Notes under the pieces: generated by a model
Seen by the model: the letters and a program-made list of their open reading frames with translations, nothing else
Told to the model about the DNA's origin: nothing
Databases searched by the model: none
Position numbers and translations under genes: made by a program
Source: Escherichia phage JES2013
DNA: 64,000 bases
Reading direction: 5' to 3' (one strand)
Sequence record: KC690136
Shown here: positions 31,211-47,593 of the stretch, in pieces
Layout of the letters: each line of letters opens with the position of its first letter
Position numbering within the stretch: position 1 is the stretch's first letter

Positions 31211-31440
31211 GACACTTTAGACATACTGGTGACACAATATGACACTTTAGACTTAATTGACATGCCTGACTGTTTACGCTGTCACTATTCGCGCTATTAC
31301 TATTCACTCCCTTTACTGTTCACGCTCTTACTGTTTACATGCTTAATGGTTTACATGCTTAATAGACTGCATGTCTAATAGTTTACATAGCTAACTGTTC
31401 ACATACTTATCATTTACATGATTGACTGTTTACACAGAGA
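31211..31440. repeat. iteron-like array: GACACTTTAGAC x2, about 8 copies of TGTT(T/C)ACA, 16-bp tandem GTTTACATGCTTAAT
   Basis: Direct repeats read in sequence (31211-31222, 31241-31252; 31273-31435). Confidence 0.55.
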
Positions 31441-31447
31441 TGATAAG

Positions 31448-31731
31448 CCATGACATTCGTTTGCATGACAATAATTAACAAGATAACAATTGACAAGCTA
31501 ACAGCCAACAAGCTGACAATTAACTTGTTTACAATAGATGACATAATATAAAAGCAGGGCAACTATTAGAAGATCTATAGTTGCCTTGCTTGTTATGTCA
31601 TGATTAACTAAATACAAGGCAACTATGATCTGATTAATAGTTTGCAAACAAACTATCACGGGGGTGATGGTTACTGCTTTTATATTATGTCGCGACTCCG
31701 TCGCGCCATGCCATTCGTTTGCATAGTTGCC
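31448..31731. repeat. GGCAACTAT inverted/direct repeats and duplicated GCCATG(A/C)CATTCGTTTGCAT
   Basis: Palindrome GGCAACTAT-N10-ATAGTTGCC (31558-31586); further copies at 31618, 31723; 19-bp repeat at 31448-31466 and 31706-31724. Confidence 0.5.
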
Positions 31732-32340
31732 TTATTGTTACAGATAAAATAATTGTATTGTTAATTATTTCTTATCTTTCTATTAGTCATCTAATGATTC
31801 CAGTCAATATAGTAATGTACAGTAAACATTAGACGACTAAAGATTTATCTGCTTATAATAACTTACCGTGACAATTTCGGACTGTTTACGAAAAATGTTG
31901 GCACCTAAGCTGATTTATGTTATGCAGTTTACACGAATAATTATTTTATGCAGGTATTGACTATTCCATTATTCTATGGTTGGAATAAATACTTAGCAGA
32001 CTATAGAATGGTGAGCGTACGTAAATTCTGAGATCTGGCGGCTATAGTTATACTCGATTTTTCACGTAGAGCACGCTTTTGTGGTTATGTAAGTGTATGA
32101 CTTATAAAGATTTTTAGTTGTTGACAAGACACTGAAGATATGCATCAGGTTAAATTTTGTGCAATAGCTGCATTACGTGCAATTTTGGAAGGAAAAACGG
32201 GTAAAAATAGCCCTGCTACCACACAATGAAAAGTTATGCAATAGTTATTTTACATGTATATTTGTACAGTGTGTGGGGTTGATGGCTCGTCAATTATTCC
32301 ACTTGCCAGGTAGGGCCGTTTATGGTAGGGGGAAGATCAG

Positions 32341-32367
32341 ACAAAAAGAAAGGGGCCTAAGCCCCTT
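32341..32367 (-). terminator. intrinsic terminator ending the - strand block
   Basis: Minus strand: AAGGGGC-TTAG-GCCCCTT followed by TCTTTTTGT, just after stop of 32386-32805. Confidence 0.65.
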
Positions 32368-32385
32368 GATAATTCAGTTAAAAAA

Positions 32386-32805
32386 TTATAATGATTCGTA
32401 TATTTCAAAAATCCGATTTGCCAGGTCGTTACGGTACCGGAATTTTTCATCACGTTTGATCATAAGATCTTTATAGCCGTACTCTTTAAGCACTTCATTA
32501 ACTTTATGGCGGCACACCTTCATATTATCCTGAGCGTCACCAATAAACCTGTTGCTATGGTGCATGGCTTTAATTTCTTCTTCCAGGACCAGGGCAACTA
32601 TGCGGACCGGATCAAGCTGATAGGCGGTAACATCAATGCGGCATTGTAAACGGCTTTTTACGTCTGCCACCGGATATACTGCAACCTCTTCCCCGTCAAC
32701 ATTGACAATAATTAGTTTACCATCGATTTCGAATCCTTTCGCCGCCGGACCGTGACAAAAAGCGTTATCAAAGCTATATGCCGGATTATTAGATTTAATG
32801 TTCAT
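32386..32805 (-). CDS. hypothetical protein
   Basis: Track ORF; AGAGGTAAAAACACC RBS; last gene of - block. Confidence 0.5.
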   Translation of the reverse strand: MNIKSNNPAYSFDNAFCHGPAAKGFEIDGKLIIVNVDGEEVAVYPVADVKSRLQCRIDVTAYQLDPVRIVALVLEEEIKAMHHSNRFIGDAQDNMKVCRHKVNEVLKEYGYKDLMIKRDEKFRYRNDLANRIFEIYESL

Positions 32806-43959: not shown

Positions 43960-44191
43960 CCTCCTTTGGGAACTTGAACTCTGGCATAGCCATATACGCT
44001 ACAACAGGGTTGTGATCAAAGTAGAACTGACCGTTAATTATCCCGGTTTTACTCACATAGTTACCAGATCCTGCAAGAACAACCTCGCAAGCTCCGAAAT
44101 CTACATTGCCATCCTCATCAGCCATGGCTACGATATACTTTCCTAGAGGCATGTTTTTAACGCCGTCTACAAATGTCCACCCTTTGTTCAT
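43946..44191 (-). CDS. hypothetical protein
   Basis: Track ORF. Confidence 0.45.
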   Translation of the reverse strand: MNKGWTFVDGVKNMPLGKYIVAMADEDGNVDFGACEVVLAGSGNYVSKTGIINGQFYFDHNPVVAYMAMPEFKFPKEGADV

Positions 44192-44211
44192 ACTTTATCT
44201 CCTGCACTTTC

Positions 44212-44544
44212 TTAAGGTAACCAGTAAACAATCTCGCCTTTCAGCTTCATGTCGTTTCCAACATAAATTTCCCAGCCATCCATCTTAGCAACTGTAGGCC
44301 CAAAGTCATCCGCACCCCTTACCTCTTTCCAGGCTCCGTAGTCAGGTTGCCAGATATAGAATCCACCTTCTTTGTCCCATGCTCCGTACACTACGTTTAA
44401 CAGGTTTCCCATTGCAACAATGGTGGGCCGTGGGAATAATACATCTACAGATGCGCCACAATTTCGGGTATCTTTTAAGTTGCAATCCCAAAAGATGTCT
44501 GCCAGTGTGGCGGCGATAGCTTTACGTCTTTCCAATGTTACCAT
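44212..44544 (-). CDS. hypothetical protein
   Basis: Track ORF. Confidence 0.45.
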   Translation of the reverse strand: MVTLERRKAIAATLADIFWDCNLKDTRNCGASVDVLFPRPTIVAMGNLLNVVYGAWDKEGGFYIWQPDYGAWKEVRGADDFGPTVAKMDGWEIYVGNDMKLKGEIVYWLP

Positions 44545-44554
44545 GGCACGATAC

Positions 44555-44746
44555 TCACTTGTTGTTAATAAGTTCTAAAACTTTCTGTCTTACTTTGTCA
44601 AGGTCTGTTGATTCAAAAACTGTGCGATATCCCCAACTTTGCCCATAGGAGTGACTGCAATCTCCGTAGCACCATTGCTCAATTTGATAGTATTCAAGGA
44701 AGGGGTGCTGTCTAACTATGATGCCATCCCGGTTAAAAATTACCAT
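44555..44746 (-). CDS. hypothetical small protein
   Basis: Track ORF. Confidence 0.4.
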   Translation of the reverse strand: MVIFNRDGIIVRQHPFLEYYQIEQWCYGDCSHSYGQSWGYRTVFESTDLDKVRQKVLELINNK

Positions 44747-44809
44747 AATACGTCGCTCTCTGTTAGTCTGTGCGTATATTATACACTGTAGTTTTCAGAT
44801 GTCAATCTT

Positions 44810-45061
44810 TTACAGGTTACTCCAGTATACTCGGCATTTACATTTCGGGCAATGAGGCTCTTTTATGTAATAACCATCAGTCTTTGGAACACTTTTTGGT
44901 GCAGTTTTAAGATTGTACCGAGTAAAACACCGGAAGCAGGTTACCTCTCCAACCTGTTGATCGTTTATCCACTCGCCAGAGTAAAGCTCTCTCTTGTTTC
45001 TCATAATTCTCTCCCAAATCCTCTGCAATCTTATACCAAAATCTCCAGCCAGAAAGCACAC
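44810..45061 (-). CDS. small zinc-ribbon protein
   Basis: CFRC...CPKCKC; start may be internal. Confidence 0.4.
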   Translation of the reverse strand: MCFLAGDFGIRLQRIWERIMRNKRELYSGEWINDQQVGEVTCFRCFTRYNLKTAPKSVPKTDGYYIKEPHCPKCKCRVYWSNL

Positions 45062-45254
45062 GGGAACACTTTGATGATTGAATCTTTACCTGGTTCAGCA
45101 GTTCTTTTTCCGTAGGGTAGGTAGAAATACCCTCCTGCAGATTCGAACACAGCCCCTTCGGTTGTATCTATCACAGCCAGAATTAAGATTTTAGTCTCCA
45201 TAGTGCTCCCTCTCTCAATCGTTGTGGTGACTATACCATCTCAAAAACCCGCTG

Positions 45255-45752
45255 TCAACACTTTTTGTACTCCACCACGATAATATTCATATCAAAAGTG
45301 GCAAGGTTAATAACGTCCTCTACGTGCTCCCACTTCAAACCGCCTATGCCGCACCCGATCTTAGGGATGTAGAATGGTAAAGTCGATCCACTGAATACCT
45401 CATTGACTAGCTCAAAGCCTTTCAGGATTGAGAAATATTCAGCATTAGGTCCTGGGTAGAACTGAGTATACAGATTGATTCCGTAGACAATACCTCTCGG
45501 AGATAAGTGCTCCCATCGGGAGAACGCACCCAGTTTACTTAGGCAACCGTGTCTGGTCTCTTTGTCAGCTGCCAATGCTTGAGGGAACTCACGGGCAATC
45601 TGTTTTGCTATCCCCTTGCCCATTGTGTGGAAGCAGTTACAACCGTGGATCAGGTGACCAGCACCGCTCTTAAAAAGGGAGATTAAATCTCCCTCTACAG
45701 TATCAATAATCACGGTATGCCAGCTCCTCTTCCGCAATTTCAAAAAACTCAT
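45255..45752 (-). CDS. macrodomain-like protein (TARG1/DarG-type ADP-ribose hydrolase candidate)
   Basis: HGCNCFHTMGKGIAKQIAREFP resembles the NC..MG.GIA...F motif of TARG1/DarG macrodomains; start chosen at internal ATG 45752. Confidence 0.4.
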   Translation of the reverse strand: MSFLKLRKRSWHTVIIDTVEGDLISLFKSGAGHLIHGCNCFHTMGKGIAKQIAREFPQALAADKETRHGCLSKLGAFSRWEHLSPRGIVYGINLYTQFYPGPNAEYFSILKGFELVNEVFSGSTLPFYIPKIGCGIGGLKWEHVEDVINLATFDMNIIVVEYKKC

Positions 45753-46128
45753 CCCAACCTTGTGGCATATTTGAGTTGCCGAAGTGGCTTTCATAGTAAA
45801 GGTTCTCACCACTTGGGAGATAGAAATCTGTTACCTCGTAGAATCCACAATCGTCGCACTCGCCTTCTTCAAACTTGGCCTCAACCTTAATACCGAGGAA
45901 GGTGAAAAGTTTATGAATATCTTCAGTTTCGAACTCCCAGTGAATGTTGTTTTCCGCATCGGTGTAGAACTGGATCAGCAGACCATTGTCCAGTTTACCA
46001 AAATACTCTGTGAAGTAACTTCCTTCCCAGAAATCTCTATGACAAATAATATCCATGCGTTTGCCCATAATAATGGTGTGAGCGTTTTGGGCATCGTCGC
46101 GAATCAGTTTTGGCATTTCATAGATCAT
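45703..46128 (-). CDS. hypothetical protein
   Basis: Track ORF. Confidence 0.45.
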   Translation of the reverse strand: MIYEMPKLIRDDAQNAHTIIMGKRMDIICHRDFWEGSYFTEYFGKLDNGLLIQFYTDAENNIHWEFETEDIHKLFTFLGIKVEAKFEEGECDDCGFYEVTDFYLPSGENLYYESHFGNSNMPQGWDEFFEIAEEELAYRDY

Positions 46129-46196
46129 CTTAGTTCTCCGGGTTCAACAGGTGGTGGTGCTACAGGAAGATCATAAAACATAGCTATCACAGTCTC

Positions 46197-46394
46197 TTAC
46201 ACAGGAATTGCTTCAAACAGGCCGTTATCTATACCGTCCTTCAGATAGAGATTATATTCTATATCGGTATCTGTATAAAGGGCAGCATCCAGCATTCTAT
46301 CTGTGAGTCCATCCATTGGGTGGAGAAACCACCACCCACGCCAGTCAAAGTAACAGCCTGGTGCATCTTCTCTTACACGGATTCGATAAATCAT
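46197..46394 (-). CDS. hypothetical small protein
   Basis: Track ORF. Confidence 0.4.
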   Translation of the reverse strand: MIYRIRVREDAPGCYFDWRGWWFLHPMDGLTDRMLDAALYTDTDIEYNLYLKDGIDNGLFEAIPV

Positions 46395-46490
46395 GGGCAG
46401 TGGCCTCCTGTTAGTTATACATCCCAGTTTTCTTCGTTCATCGCGTCCTCCCGTTATATGAAGTTATAATTGCACACCTTTCAACCTGTG

Positions 46491-46907
46491 TCAACAGAAA
46501 ACTTCAACAAATTCTTCCACAGTTTTAATGTCGTGGGAAAAAGGTTTACGGCTATAACGGGCAATAGCACTATCAACCACCGCCCGGTACTCCAAATCTT
46601 CAGAATATTTCATGAAGCATTGCAGCGTCTCTGGGCAGATAGCTAAATAGCTCCACCACCCCTCTTCAGATTGGTAGTCGAATCCCATACTCTCCAACCA
46701 TGAAGCATATACTCCTGCACCCTCTAGCCAGTGGGTATTTTCATCAAGAAATTTATTCACCGACATGTGTGCTTCCAGGCACTCGTCAAGCTCTTTTCCG
46801 TTAACCAGCCATGCACTGACTGTGGCGCATCCGAGGTCTACAGATTGAGTTGACAGGTTGTATTGGTCATAGTTCTCAGGTTTAACAATGATATCTTCTA
46901 ATGTCAT
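46491..46907 (-). CDS. hypothetical protein
   Basis: Track ORF. Confidence 0.45.
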   Translation of the reverse strand: MTLEDIIVKPENYDQYNLSTQSVDLGCATVSAWLVNGKELDECLEAHMSVNKFLDENTHWLEGAGVYASWLESMGFDYQSEEGWWSYLAICPETLQCFMKYSEDLEYRAVVDSAIARYSRKPFSHDIKTVEEFVEVFC

Positions 46908-46969
46908 TTTTCAGATCTCCTTATACAAAAATGCCCCACCCTTTCGGGCAGGGCTATGTCAGTTAGGTG

Positions 46970-47593
46970 CTAAAAGTATTCATAGAGGTATCCATCGGGA
47001 GCTGGAATTTTTTCATGAATGTAGTAATCAACACATATTCCGGTTTCTCTTCTACAAGAATTGTGGGATACCCATTCTTTAAGAACGTTGCCATTCATGT
47101 CCAGCCTCCTTACATTTTTACACCGTCTACCGCTGGTGCTTCTATGCAACAGAATATCCTCCGTCTGCTTGTCTTTATTTTCTCCCCAGGTCGTTAAACG
47201 GATATTATCAAAAGAGTACCCTTTGAAATCATCTATCCTGTCACAAGAAGGCTTTTTCCTTTTGTCGTATCCGCTGGCTACCCACTGGTCATACAACTCT
47301 TTGTAACCGTTCAGGTATAGCCACTCCTTAAACTCTTTTTTGGTGTAAGTCGGAGGAGGGTGACCTCTTTGCTTGCTGTTGCACTTTTGAGCCTTGTACA
47401 ACACGCGTATTACACCTTTTTCTGAAGAGTCGTGGGAAAACTGGTCAGCCTCCCTACTGGCCTTCTTACAACACTCTTTGCACTTATTAAGATGACCGTC
47501 AGACATCTTTGGGTGTTTGTAGAACTCGGAGAGGTTTTTCACCTCTCCGCACTTGATGCATCTCTTACAATGCGTAGATTCTACTTTTGCCAT
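46970..47593 (-). CDS. HNH-like endonuclease with N-terminal zinc finger (degenerate DRID motif)
   Basis: CKRCIKCG...KCKEC; [23 protein letters not shown] resembles HNH_3 DHID...N.RL.T..EN. Confidence 0.4.

What the first reader, a model, noticed from the sequence alone, without database searches (positions are those of the whole stretch)
45255..45752. Macrodomain-like protein among early genes: candidate ADP-ribosylation eraser
HGCNCFHTMGKGIAKQIAREFP resembles the catalytic loop region of TARG1/DarG-type macrodomains that remove ADP-ribose from DNA or protein. A phage copy could counter ADP-ribosylating host toxins or defence systems such as DarT. This rests on a single motif match and is a hypothesis.
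Basis: inference. Interest (0 to 1): 0.7.

Follow-up and report, generated by a model that had tools for sequence, protein, structure and literature searches.

The report
Phage macrodomain: T4 AdfM (Tk.4) orthologue

The parts
45255..45713 (-). Macrodomain gene (152 aa, GTG start): Vequintavirus orthologue of T4 tk.4/adfM
45714..45752 (-).
   Evidence: It lies inside the upstream gene in another frame and has only a weak SD. No homologue carries the extension. One record (PQ014731) annotates it.
45724..45728 (-). AGGAG Shine-Dalgarno sequence, 10 nt before the GTG start
   Evidence: Read directly from the sequence.
45582..45647 (-).
   Evidence: Coordinates. Alignments. Residue roles from PMC13309987 and PMC9411070.
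45462..45476 (-). N80-L-Y-T-Q84 motif. Gln84 occupies the position of the catalytic Lys of DarG (K80) and TARG1 (K84) and equals the essential Gln85 of SCO6735
   Evidence: N80 and Q84 are invariant, and Y82/T83 at least 90% conserved, in 54 homologues. HMMER and MAFFT alignments. SCO6735 mutagenesis. Q84 is the last residue of strand 74-84 in the model.
45339..45365 (-). Loop 2, P117-K-I-G-C-G-I-G-G125 (diphosphate/distal-ribose loop). Gly124 replaces TARG1 D125 and Poa1p F152
   Evidence: Alignments.
45703..46128 (-). Upstream 141-aa gene of unknown function (PHROG 8157). Its stop overlaps the macro start by 11 nt, which suggests likely translational coupling
   Evidence: No Pfam hit.
46466..46494 (-). 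Sigma-70-like promoter (TTGACA-17-AATTAT with TG), the nearest candidate promoter for the three-gene unit 46394..45255
   Evidence: Consensus scan only; function not shown.
45230..45258 (-). Sigma-70-like promoter (TTGACA-17-TATAGT, 11/12, TG) overlapping the macro stop codon, placed to serve the next small gene (45031-45201)
   Evidence: Consensus scan only.

Best explanation
The gene encodes a small, single-domain, catalytically competent macrodomain of the ALC1-like (TARG1/DarG/SCO6735/Poa1p) class. It is the Vequintavirus member of the T4 Tk.4 = AdfM family. Most likely it is made early in infection from host-type promoters and acts as an orphan 'antitoxin-like' eraser. When a DarTG2-carrying E. 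coli host releases DarT2, which ADP-ribosylates thymidines in single-stranded phage DNA and blocks replication, the enzyme binds the ADP-ribose through loop 1 (MGKGIA) and loop 2 (GCGIGG). It then hydrolyses the ribose-thymine N-glycosidic bond, releasing ADP-ribose and restoring replicable DNA. Catalysis is probably of the SCO6735 type: Gln84 positions the substrate or transition state, and an activated water held near the His23-Gly24-Cys25-Asn26 strand does the chemistry, rather than the Lys of DarG/TARG1. What is shown here: the ORF, the fold, the residue pattern, the family membership and the synteny bridge. What is shown by others for homologues: T4 tk.4 is required on DarTG2 hosts, and SCO6735 and PhiKZ AdfM remove dT-ADPr. 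What is inferred: enzymatic activity, the DNA-thymidine substrate and the anti-DarTG2 role of this particular protein, and its early timing.
Against: There is no experiment on this protein or on any Vequintavirus. The library holds no report of Vequintavirinae challenged with DarTG2. Identity to T4 AdfM is only 39%. The T4 evidence is genetic and from a preprint, and hydrolase activity of a Gln-type phage macrodomain has not been shown biochemically. The catalytic Lys of DarG/TARG1/PhiKZ-AdfM is absent. SCO6735's K89 and its longer mobile loop are absent too. Macrodomains are promiscuous across protein, RNA and small-molecule ADP-ribose substrates, and a large survey argued that most phage macrodomains target soluble ADPr derivatives. 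Bacterial relatives with the same motif are standalone genes, not DarT partners, so a DarG-derived origin is not supported.
Confidence: 0.7

Rival explanations
1. It is a small-molecule ADP-ribose-derivative hydrolase, as the database labels say ('phosphatase', 'A1pp', 'O-acetyl-ADP-ribose deacetylase', 'Poa1p-like'). It would dephosphorylate ADP-ribose-1''-phosphate from RNA repair, deacetylate OAADPr, or destroy ADPr-based immune signals or toxins.
For: PHROG 335 and T4 Tk.4 are labelled phosphatase/A1pp. Poa1p is a top structural and sequence hit. Poa1p's H23 and S30 align with H23 and T30 here (mutant names). The Aravind-lab survey argues that phage macrodomains mainly process low-molecular-weight ADPr derivatives.
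Against: The labels come from domain-name transfer and no assay supports them. Poa1p F152 is Gly here. No KptA/Tpt1, 2H phosphoesterase or RNA ligase was seen next to the gene, though only the neighbourhood was checked. The only phenotype known for the family is DarTG2-specific. This activity could coexist with DNA de-ADP-ribosylation.
Confidence: 0.13
2. It is a protein or RNA de-ADP-ribosylase. It would reverse mono-ADP-ribosylation of phage or host proteins (Glu/Asp-linked, as TARG1 and SCO6735 do) or of RNA (for example CmdT-type mRNA modification), either as a counter-defence or to tune a phage-encoded ADP-ribosyltransferase.
For: TARG1 and SCO6735, both close structural relatives, act on protein Glu/Asp-ADPr, and SCO6735 Q85A loses that activity too. 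RNA-ADP-ribosylating defences exist, as noted in the discussion of PMC11825919.
Against: The TARG1 Lys84/Asp125 dyad used for protein substrates is absent. No ADP-ribosyltransferase is annotated in the about 46 kb inspected around the gene. There is no phenotype linking the family to such systems. It is not exclusive of the main explanation.
Confidence: 0.1
3. It is a non-catalytic ADP-ribose binder (a reader or sponge), or a stoichiometric DarT inhibitor that works by binding rather than by hydrolysis.
For: Some macrodomains only bind. The canonical Lys is missing. Catalytically dead SCO6735 Q85A still inhibits DarT by interaction.
Against: N26, Q84 and both Gly-rich loops are invariant across homologues as low as 33% identical, which matches an enzyme active site. 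The protein lacks the C-terminal DarT-binding domain of DarG2: it is 152 aa, all macro fold.
Confidence: 0.05

Closest known systems
T4 Tk.4 = AdfM (anti-DarT factor macrodomain), T4 gene tk.4, NP_049723; preprint 10.1101/2025.11.20.689424
   Same: It is a single-domain protein of about 152-155 aa that aligns end to end (39% identity, E 4e-40). It has the same HGCNCFHTMG, NLYTQ and P-x-I-G-x-G-I-G motifs and the same best PHROG. A 69%-identical protein occupies the tk.4 slot of the T4-like phage GEC-3S.
   Different: The genomic neighbourhood differs: here it lies among small unknown genes downstream of the replication module, not between vs and tk. Residue 33 is Lys (Ser in T4, Ala in most homologues). 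It has not been tested experimentally.
SCO6735 (Streptomyces coelicolor macrodomain hydrolase, PDB 5E3B; PMC9411070)
   Same: It is an ALC1-like macrodomain with Gln at the DarG-K80/TARG1-K84 position, plus the equivalents of H24, N27 and K34. It is standalone and not encoded beside a DarT. SCO6735 efficiently removes DarT-made thymidine-ADPr.
   Different: Identity is only about 27%. The local motif is NLYTQ versus NMIGQ. The phage protein lacks K89 and the longer mobile loop after the Gln. The organism and the biological role differ.
DarG2 antitoxin macrodomain (T. aquaticus 5M31/5M3E, M. tuberculosis 5M3I) and PhiKZ gp104 AdfM (PMC13309987)
   Different: The catalytic Lys (DarG K80, PhiKZ K78; motif FPTK) is Gln here. 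There is no C-terminal DarT-binding domain and no adjacent darT. The NCBIfam DarG equivalog scores 47 bits against a cut-off of 250. Identity to PhiKZ gp104 is only 23%.
Human TARG1/OARD1 (PDB 4J5R/4J5S)
   Same: It is the best Foldseek hit (E 5.9e-10, TM 0.76-0.82), of the same size and topology.
   Different: The Lys84/Asp125 catalytic dyad is replaced by Gln84/Gly124.
Yeast Poa1p ADP-ribose-1''-phosphate phosphatase (PDB 6LFQ-6LFU)
   Different: Poa1p F152 is Gly here, and Poa1p has about 25 extra residues. Identity is only 24%.

Membership tests
Macrodomain superfamily (Pfam PF01661) | Sequence match above the curated threshold | tested here: met
   28 bits against a gathering score of 22, E 2.3e-6. 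Most homologues carry precomputed PF01661.
Macrodomain superfamily (Pfam PF01661) | Three-layer alpha/beta macro fold with two Gly-rich ADP-ribose-binding loops | tested here: met
T4 Tk.4 / AdfM family (Gln-type phage macrodomains) | Full-length homology to T4 Tk.4 and shared family model | tested here: met
   39% identity over 150/152 residues, E 4e-40. Both best-hit phrog_335. The orthologue is annotated 'T4 GC 1557'.
T4 Tk.4 / AdfM family (Gln-type phage macrodomains) | Signature motifs HGCNCFHTMG and N-x-Y-T-Q | tested here: met
   Both are present in the window protein, T4, GEC-3S and the homologue alignments.
T4 Tk.4 / AdfM family (Gln-type phage macrodomains) | Positional orthology (tk.4 slot between vs and tk) | tested here: not met
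   The Vequintavirus neighbourhood differs. The link is indirect, through the 69%-identical GEC-3S protein that does sit in the tk.4 slot.
T4 Tk.4 / AdfM family (Gln-type phage macrodomains) | Protects the phage against DarTG2 | not testable with these tools
   Shown genetically for T4 only. No Vequintavirinae x DarTG2 data were found.
DarG2 antitoxin (type II/IV TA antitoxin) | Meets the NCBIfam equivalog NF048014 | tested here: not met
   47 bits against a cut-off of 250; only the macro part (positions 3-139 of 338) matches.
DarG2 antitoxin (type II/IV TA antitoxin) | Catalytic Lys (T. aquaticus K80) in the FPTK motif | tested here: not met
   The aligned residue is Gln84 in HMMER and MAFFT alignments.
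DarG2 antitoxin (type II/IV TA antitoxin) | C-terminal DarT-binding domain and an adjacent darT gene | tested here: not met
   The protein is 152 aa, all macro fold. The flanking genes have no Pfam hit. Bacterial relatives with the same motif also lack a recurrent DarT neighbour.
SCO6735-type (Gln-type) ALC1-like hydrolases | Essential Gln at the K80/K84 position, plus His, Asn and the loop-1 Lys | tested here: met
   Q84, H23, N26 and K33 align with Q85, H24, N27 and K34. Their roles come from PMC9411070.
SCO6735-type (Gln-type) ALC1-like hydrolases | K89 and the extended mobile loop after the Gln | tested here: not met
   The phage has QFYPGPN where SCO6735 has QHGMKTGSKGAP.
TARG1/OARD1 | Lys84/Asp125 catalytic dyad | tested here: not met
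   The aligned residues are Gln84 and Gly124.
Poa1p-like ADP-ribose-1''-phosphatase | Residues probed in the deposited Poa1p structures (H23, S30, F152) | tested here: inconclusive
   H23 is conserved, S30 is Thr and F152 is Gly (alignment; mutant names). The Poa1p paper was not available, so the residues' roles are unknown to me.
Any ADP-ribosyl hydrolase | ADP-ribose binding and hydrolysis in vitro | not testable with these tools
   No biochemical data exist for this protein.

The most novel reading that the evidence does not exclude
The Tk.4/rV5-type 'AdfM' proteins may not be captured DarG2 antitoxins. They could instead be a separate Gln-type lineage (invariant N-x-Y-T-Q) related to standalone bacterial hydrolases, using a lysine-independent, water-mediated mechanism like SCO6735. 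In that case the two proteins independently named AdfM (T4 Tk.4 and PhiKZ gp104) would be convergent solutions. The Gln-type enzyme, present in about 5% of sequenced phages, could be a broad-spectrum eraser that also removes protein- or RNA-linked ADP-ribose and so disarms several ADP-ribosylating defences at once.
Probability: 0.25. Interest if true: 0.5.

Novelty: already known. Interest (0 to 1): 0.22.

Why it matters
If the protein works as predicted, rV5-like coliphages, which are widely used as O157 typing, biocontrol and therapy candidates, carry a built-in counter to DarTG2, a defence found in pathogenic E. coli. That bears on predicting host range. The wider point is modest. The family is common, with hits in 2,781 of 50,697 phage records. 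It uses Gln where DarG and TARG1 use Lys, so it would be a natural system for testing the lysine-independent mechanism proposed for SCO6735. None of this is a new concept: the domain annotation, the T4 orthologue's anti-DarTG2 role and a biochemically validated phage macrodomain (PhiKZ AdfM) are all on record.

Tried and rejected
(1) DarG antitoxin membership was rejected. The NCBIfam equivalog is far below its cut-off, there is no Lys, no C-terminal domain and no DarT neighbour.

(2) I searched for a DarT partner next to bacterial relatives. The search for related loci failed with the 54-sequence alignment and worked with a 14-sequence one. The 30 loci (Rhodobacterales, Hyphomicrobiaceae, Nitrospirales and others) mostly carry NAYTQ. 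Neighbour clustering and Pfam found no DUF4433/DarT, only housekeeping genes such as a class-I aminoacyl-tRNA synthetase and an MCP. The scan used the single pattern CNCFHTM, so it samples only part of the bacterial family.

(3) I looked for literature on macrodomains in Vequintavirus/rV5 and on Vequintavirinae challenged with DarTG and found nothing specific. The Bas54 transposon library was not reported on DarTG2.

(4) I looked for linked RNA features. There is no tRNA and no Rfam family in the window, which gives no support for an RNA-repair context.

(5) I considered the ATG at 45752 and the GTG at 45812 as starts and rejected both in favour of GTG 45713.

(6) I could not obtain residue-level structural superpositions or model coordinates, so active-site equivalences rest on sequence alignments plus the published SCO6735 equivalence.

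(7) I did not scan the whole phage genome for ADP-ribosyltransferases or NADAR genes. PMC11825919 reports NADAR only in Bas32/33 and Bas60-62 among non-T-even BASEL phages, which implies none in the rV5-like Bas phages.

Full report
**Observation**

The quoted peptide HGCNCFHTMGKGIAKQIAREFP is encoded on the minus strand at 45582-45647. It lies in an ORF that is open from 45812 down to the stop at 45255.

The better-supported start is GTG at 45713, giving 152 aa (MIIDTVEGDL...), for four reasons:
- An AGGAG Shine-Dalgarno sequence lies 10 nt upstream.
- This start overlaps the stop of the upstream gene (45703-46128) by only 11 nt, against 50 nt for the ATG.
- All aligned homologues, including T4 Tk.4, begin at this residue.
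- Three of four inspected public annotations use the 459-nt model; one uses the 498-nt model.

**What the window is**

Region 44000-47000 is 95-99% identical to more than 100 Vequintavirus (rV5-like) coliphage genomes, such as ECML-10, O157 typing phage 4 and BASEL Bas58. In those records the same gene is variously annotated:
- "macro domain protein"
- "O-acetyl-ADP-ribose deacetylase"
- "phosphatase"
- [quoted passage not shown]
- or just "hypothetical protein"

The domain call is therefore already public.

**Is it a macrodomain, and of which class?**

Sequence evidence:
- Pfam Macro is above the gathering score (28 against 22 bits).
- PHROG 335 gives E 1.5e-58.
- The PADLOC DarG model gives 1.6e-13.
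- The NCBIfam DarG equivalog gives only 47 bits against a cut-off of 250.

Structural evidence:
- An AlphaFold2 model built on 54 homologues has pLDDT 96.9 and pTM 0.91.
- Foldseek ranks TARG1, Poa1p and DarG first.
- A family profile hits the same PDB sequences at E 1e-16 to 1e-13.

**Active site**

Across 54 homologues down to 33% identity, the invariant residues are G24, N26, M31, G34, A36, N80, Q84, P117 and G120. H23, C27, Y82, T83, G122 and G125 are at least 90% conserved.
- N26 aligns with the catalytic-site Asn of DarG (N22) and PhiKZ AdfM (N23).
- The catalytic Lys of DarG (K80), TARG1 (K84) and PhiKZ AdfM (K78) aligns with Gln84 (motif NLYTQ against FPTK or LITK). This holds in pairwise HMMER, profile HMMER and MAFFT alignments.
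- TARG1's Asp125 aligns with Gly124.

BT1257 and SCO6735 share the Gln (NMIGQ). For SCO6735, the published work states that Gln85 is at the position of K80/K84. It also shows that Q85A and Q85E abolish activity, and that the enzyme removes DarT-made thymidine-ADP-ribose from DNA more efficiently than DarG or TARG1 and protects cells from DarT (PMC9411070). The phage protein also matches SCO6735's H24, N27 and K34 (H23, N26 and K33 here), but it lacks K89 and the longer loop after the Gln. Losing the Lys therefore does not argue for an inactive protein. It points to the Gln-type mechanism.

**Link to an experimentally implicated protein**

tblastn finds relatives in 2,781 of 50,697 phage records. 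These include T4-like phages, where the gene is tk.4, next to vs.
- T4 Tk.4 (NP_049723, "phosphatase; A1pp motif") is 39% identical over the full length (E 4e-40). It carries the same HGCNCFHTMG and NLYTQ motifs.
- The T4-like Krischvirus GEC-3S encodes a protein 69% identical to the window protein, exactly in the regB-vs.1-vs-[macro]-...-tk-rI slot.
- The GEC-3S protein is only 44% identical to T4 Tk.4. So the Vequintavirus protein nests within the Tk.4 group, and the gene has evidently moved between myovirus lineages.

The HIDEN-SEQ preprint (10.1101/2025.11.20.689424) reports that tk.4 was the single significant conditionally essential T4 gene on a DarTG2-expressing host. A clean knockout sensitised T4, and the authors renamed the gene adfM. 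Independently, a Cell Reports 2026 paper (PMC13309987) named the PhiKZ macrodomain gp104 AdfM. It showed that gp104 removes DarT2-made ADP-ribose from DNA and protects chimalliviruses. PhiKZ gp104 is only 23% identical to the window protein and is Lys-type. All three proteins fall in PHROG 335.

**Context**

The gene lies in a long minus-strand run: rIIA/rIIB, helicases, primase, DNA polymerase, then many small unknown genes. Strong sigma-70 consensus promoters sit in the intergenic gaps on the coding strand, at 46494-46466, 45258-45230 and 44805-44778 (the last a 12/12 match). A terminator-like hairpin lies at 46954-46933. The scan found 17 promoter-like sites against 9.9 +/- 3.1 expected. 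This fits early, host-polymerase transcription, but it is only a consensus scan.

The neighbours have no Pfam hits. There is no tRNA and no Rfam family in the window. DarTG2 occurs naturally in E. coli (EPEC E2348/69), so the proposed target is relevant to this phage's hosts. PMC11825919 found NADAR (anti-DarT1) genes among non-T-even BASEL phages only in Bas32/33 and Bas60-62, that is, not in the rV5-like Bas phages.

**Origin**

A genome scan with the pattern CNCFHTM returned 30 bacterial loci, from Rhodobacterales, Hyphomicrobiaceae, Nitrospirales and others. In 24 of the 28 loci with a callable macro ORF the proteins carry NAYTQ. Neighbour clustering and Pfam found no recurrent DarT. The neighbours are housekeeping genes such as a class-I aminoacyl-tRNA synthetase and a chemoreceptor, and one protein is an N-terminal fusion. 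In this limited sample the Gln-type lineage therefore looks like a standalone hydrolase family and does not resemble a DarT-linked antitoxin.

**Mechanism proposed**

The protein is expressed early. When DarT2 ADP-ribosylates thymidines in single-stranded phage DNA, the enzyme binds the ADP-ribose through its two Gly-rich loops. It cleaves the ribose-thymine bond by a Gln84-assisted, water-mediated reaction, which restores replication. What is shown here is the ORF, fold, residues, family and synteny bridge. What others have shown for homologues is the T4 genetics and the SCO6735 and PhiKZ biochemistry. Activity, substrate and role for this protein are inferred. Confidence is about 0.7.

The rivals, which are not mutually exclusive, are:
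- soluble ADPr-derivative processing (Poa1p-like phosphatase or OAADPr deacetylase, or destruction of ADPr signals), about 0.13
- protein or RNA de-ADP-ribosylation, about 0.1
- a non-catalytic binder or stoichiometric DarT inhibitor, about 0.05

**Verdict**

Novelty is low. The domain annotation is public, the T4 orthologue's anti-DarTG2 role has been reported, and a phage macrodomain has been shown biochemically to erase DarT2 marks.

What remains open is direct proof for Vequintaviruses and for any Gln-type phage macrodomain. It is also open whether the two "AdfM" lineages are convergent. Interest is 0.22.

Noticed in passing
window 44000-47000 (comparison with GenBank MG0656xx records): Sixteen unannotated GenBank records named 'Campylobacter phage' (host C. 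jejuni) are 95-98% identical to this rV5-like coliphage region. The host assignment of those records looks doubtful, for example through contaminating coliphages.
   Followed up: no
window 46970-47593 (-): This 207-aa gene is annotated 'endonuclease VII' or 'putative homing endonuclease' in relatives. It is missing from the same slot in rV5_ev147. That makes it a presence/absence polymorphism typical of a mobile endonuclease, three genes upstream of the macrodomain gene.
   Followed up: partly
window 44778-44805 (-), 45230-45258 (-), 46466-46494 (-), 46933-46954 (-): There is a perfect sigma-70 consensus promoter (TTGACA-16-TATAAT) and two near-perfect ones in intergenic gaps on the coding strand, plus a GC-rich terminator-like hairpin. 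This suggests several short host-RNAP transcription units in the small-gene cluster.
   Followed up: partly
L037 3001-3456 (Krischvirus GEC-3S) compared with window 45255-45713: The Tk.4-slot protein of the T4-like phage GEC-3S is 69% identical to the Vequintavirus protein but only 44% identical to T4 Tk.4. This indicates horizontal exchange of the gene between unrelated myovirus lineages.
   Followed up: partly
L036 3263-4522 (+), Cellvibrionaceae MAG: A 419-aa bacterial protein fuses an unidentified N-terminal domain of about 240 aa (no Pfam hit) to a NAYTQ-type macrodomain. It could be a SLOG/DprA-like partner of the kind noted in the Aravind survey, but this was not tested.
   Followed up: partly
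model mcec493759dfa compared with BFVD A0A481YV05: The best viral structural match is a 302-aa Marseillevirus 'SNF2 subfamily protein' (39% identity, TM 0.93). So a close relative of this phage macrodomain occurs in a giant virus.
   Followed up: no
window about 31300-32400: This is an ORF-poor region where plus-strand and minus-strand gene blocks diverge. The HIDEN-SEQ preprint notes that a roughly 2-kb intergenic switch region in the related phage Bas54 tolerates no transposon insertions, so it may be an origin or regulatory region.
   Followed up: no
window 1-64000: There is no tRNA gene (ARAGORN) and no Rfam family at gathering threshold anywhere in the 64-kb window.
   Followed up: yes
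window 45703-46128 (-): A 141-aa acidic protein of unknown function (PHROG 8157, no Pfam hit) has a stop codon that overlaps the macrodomain start by 11 nt. Possible translational coupling or a functional partnership was not explored.
   Followed up: no
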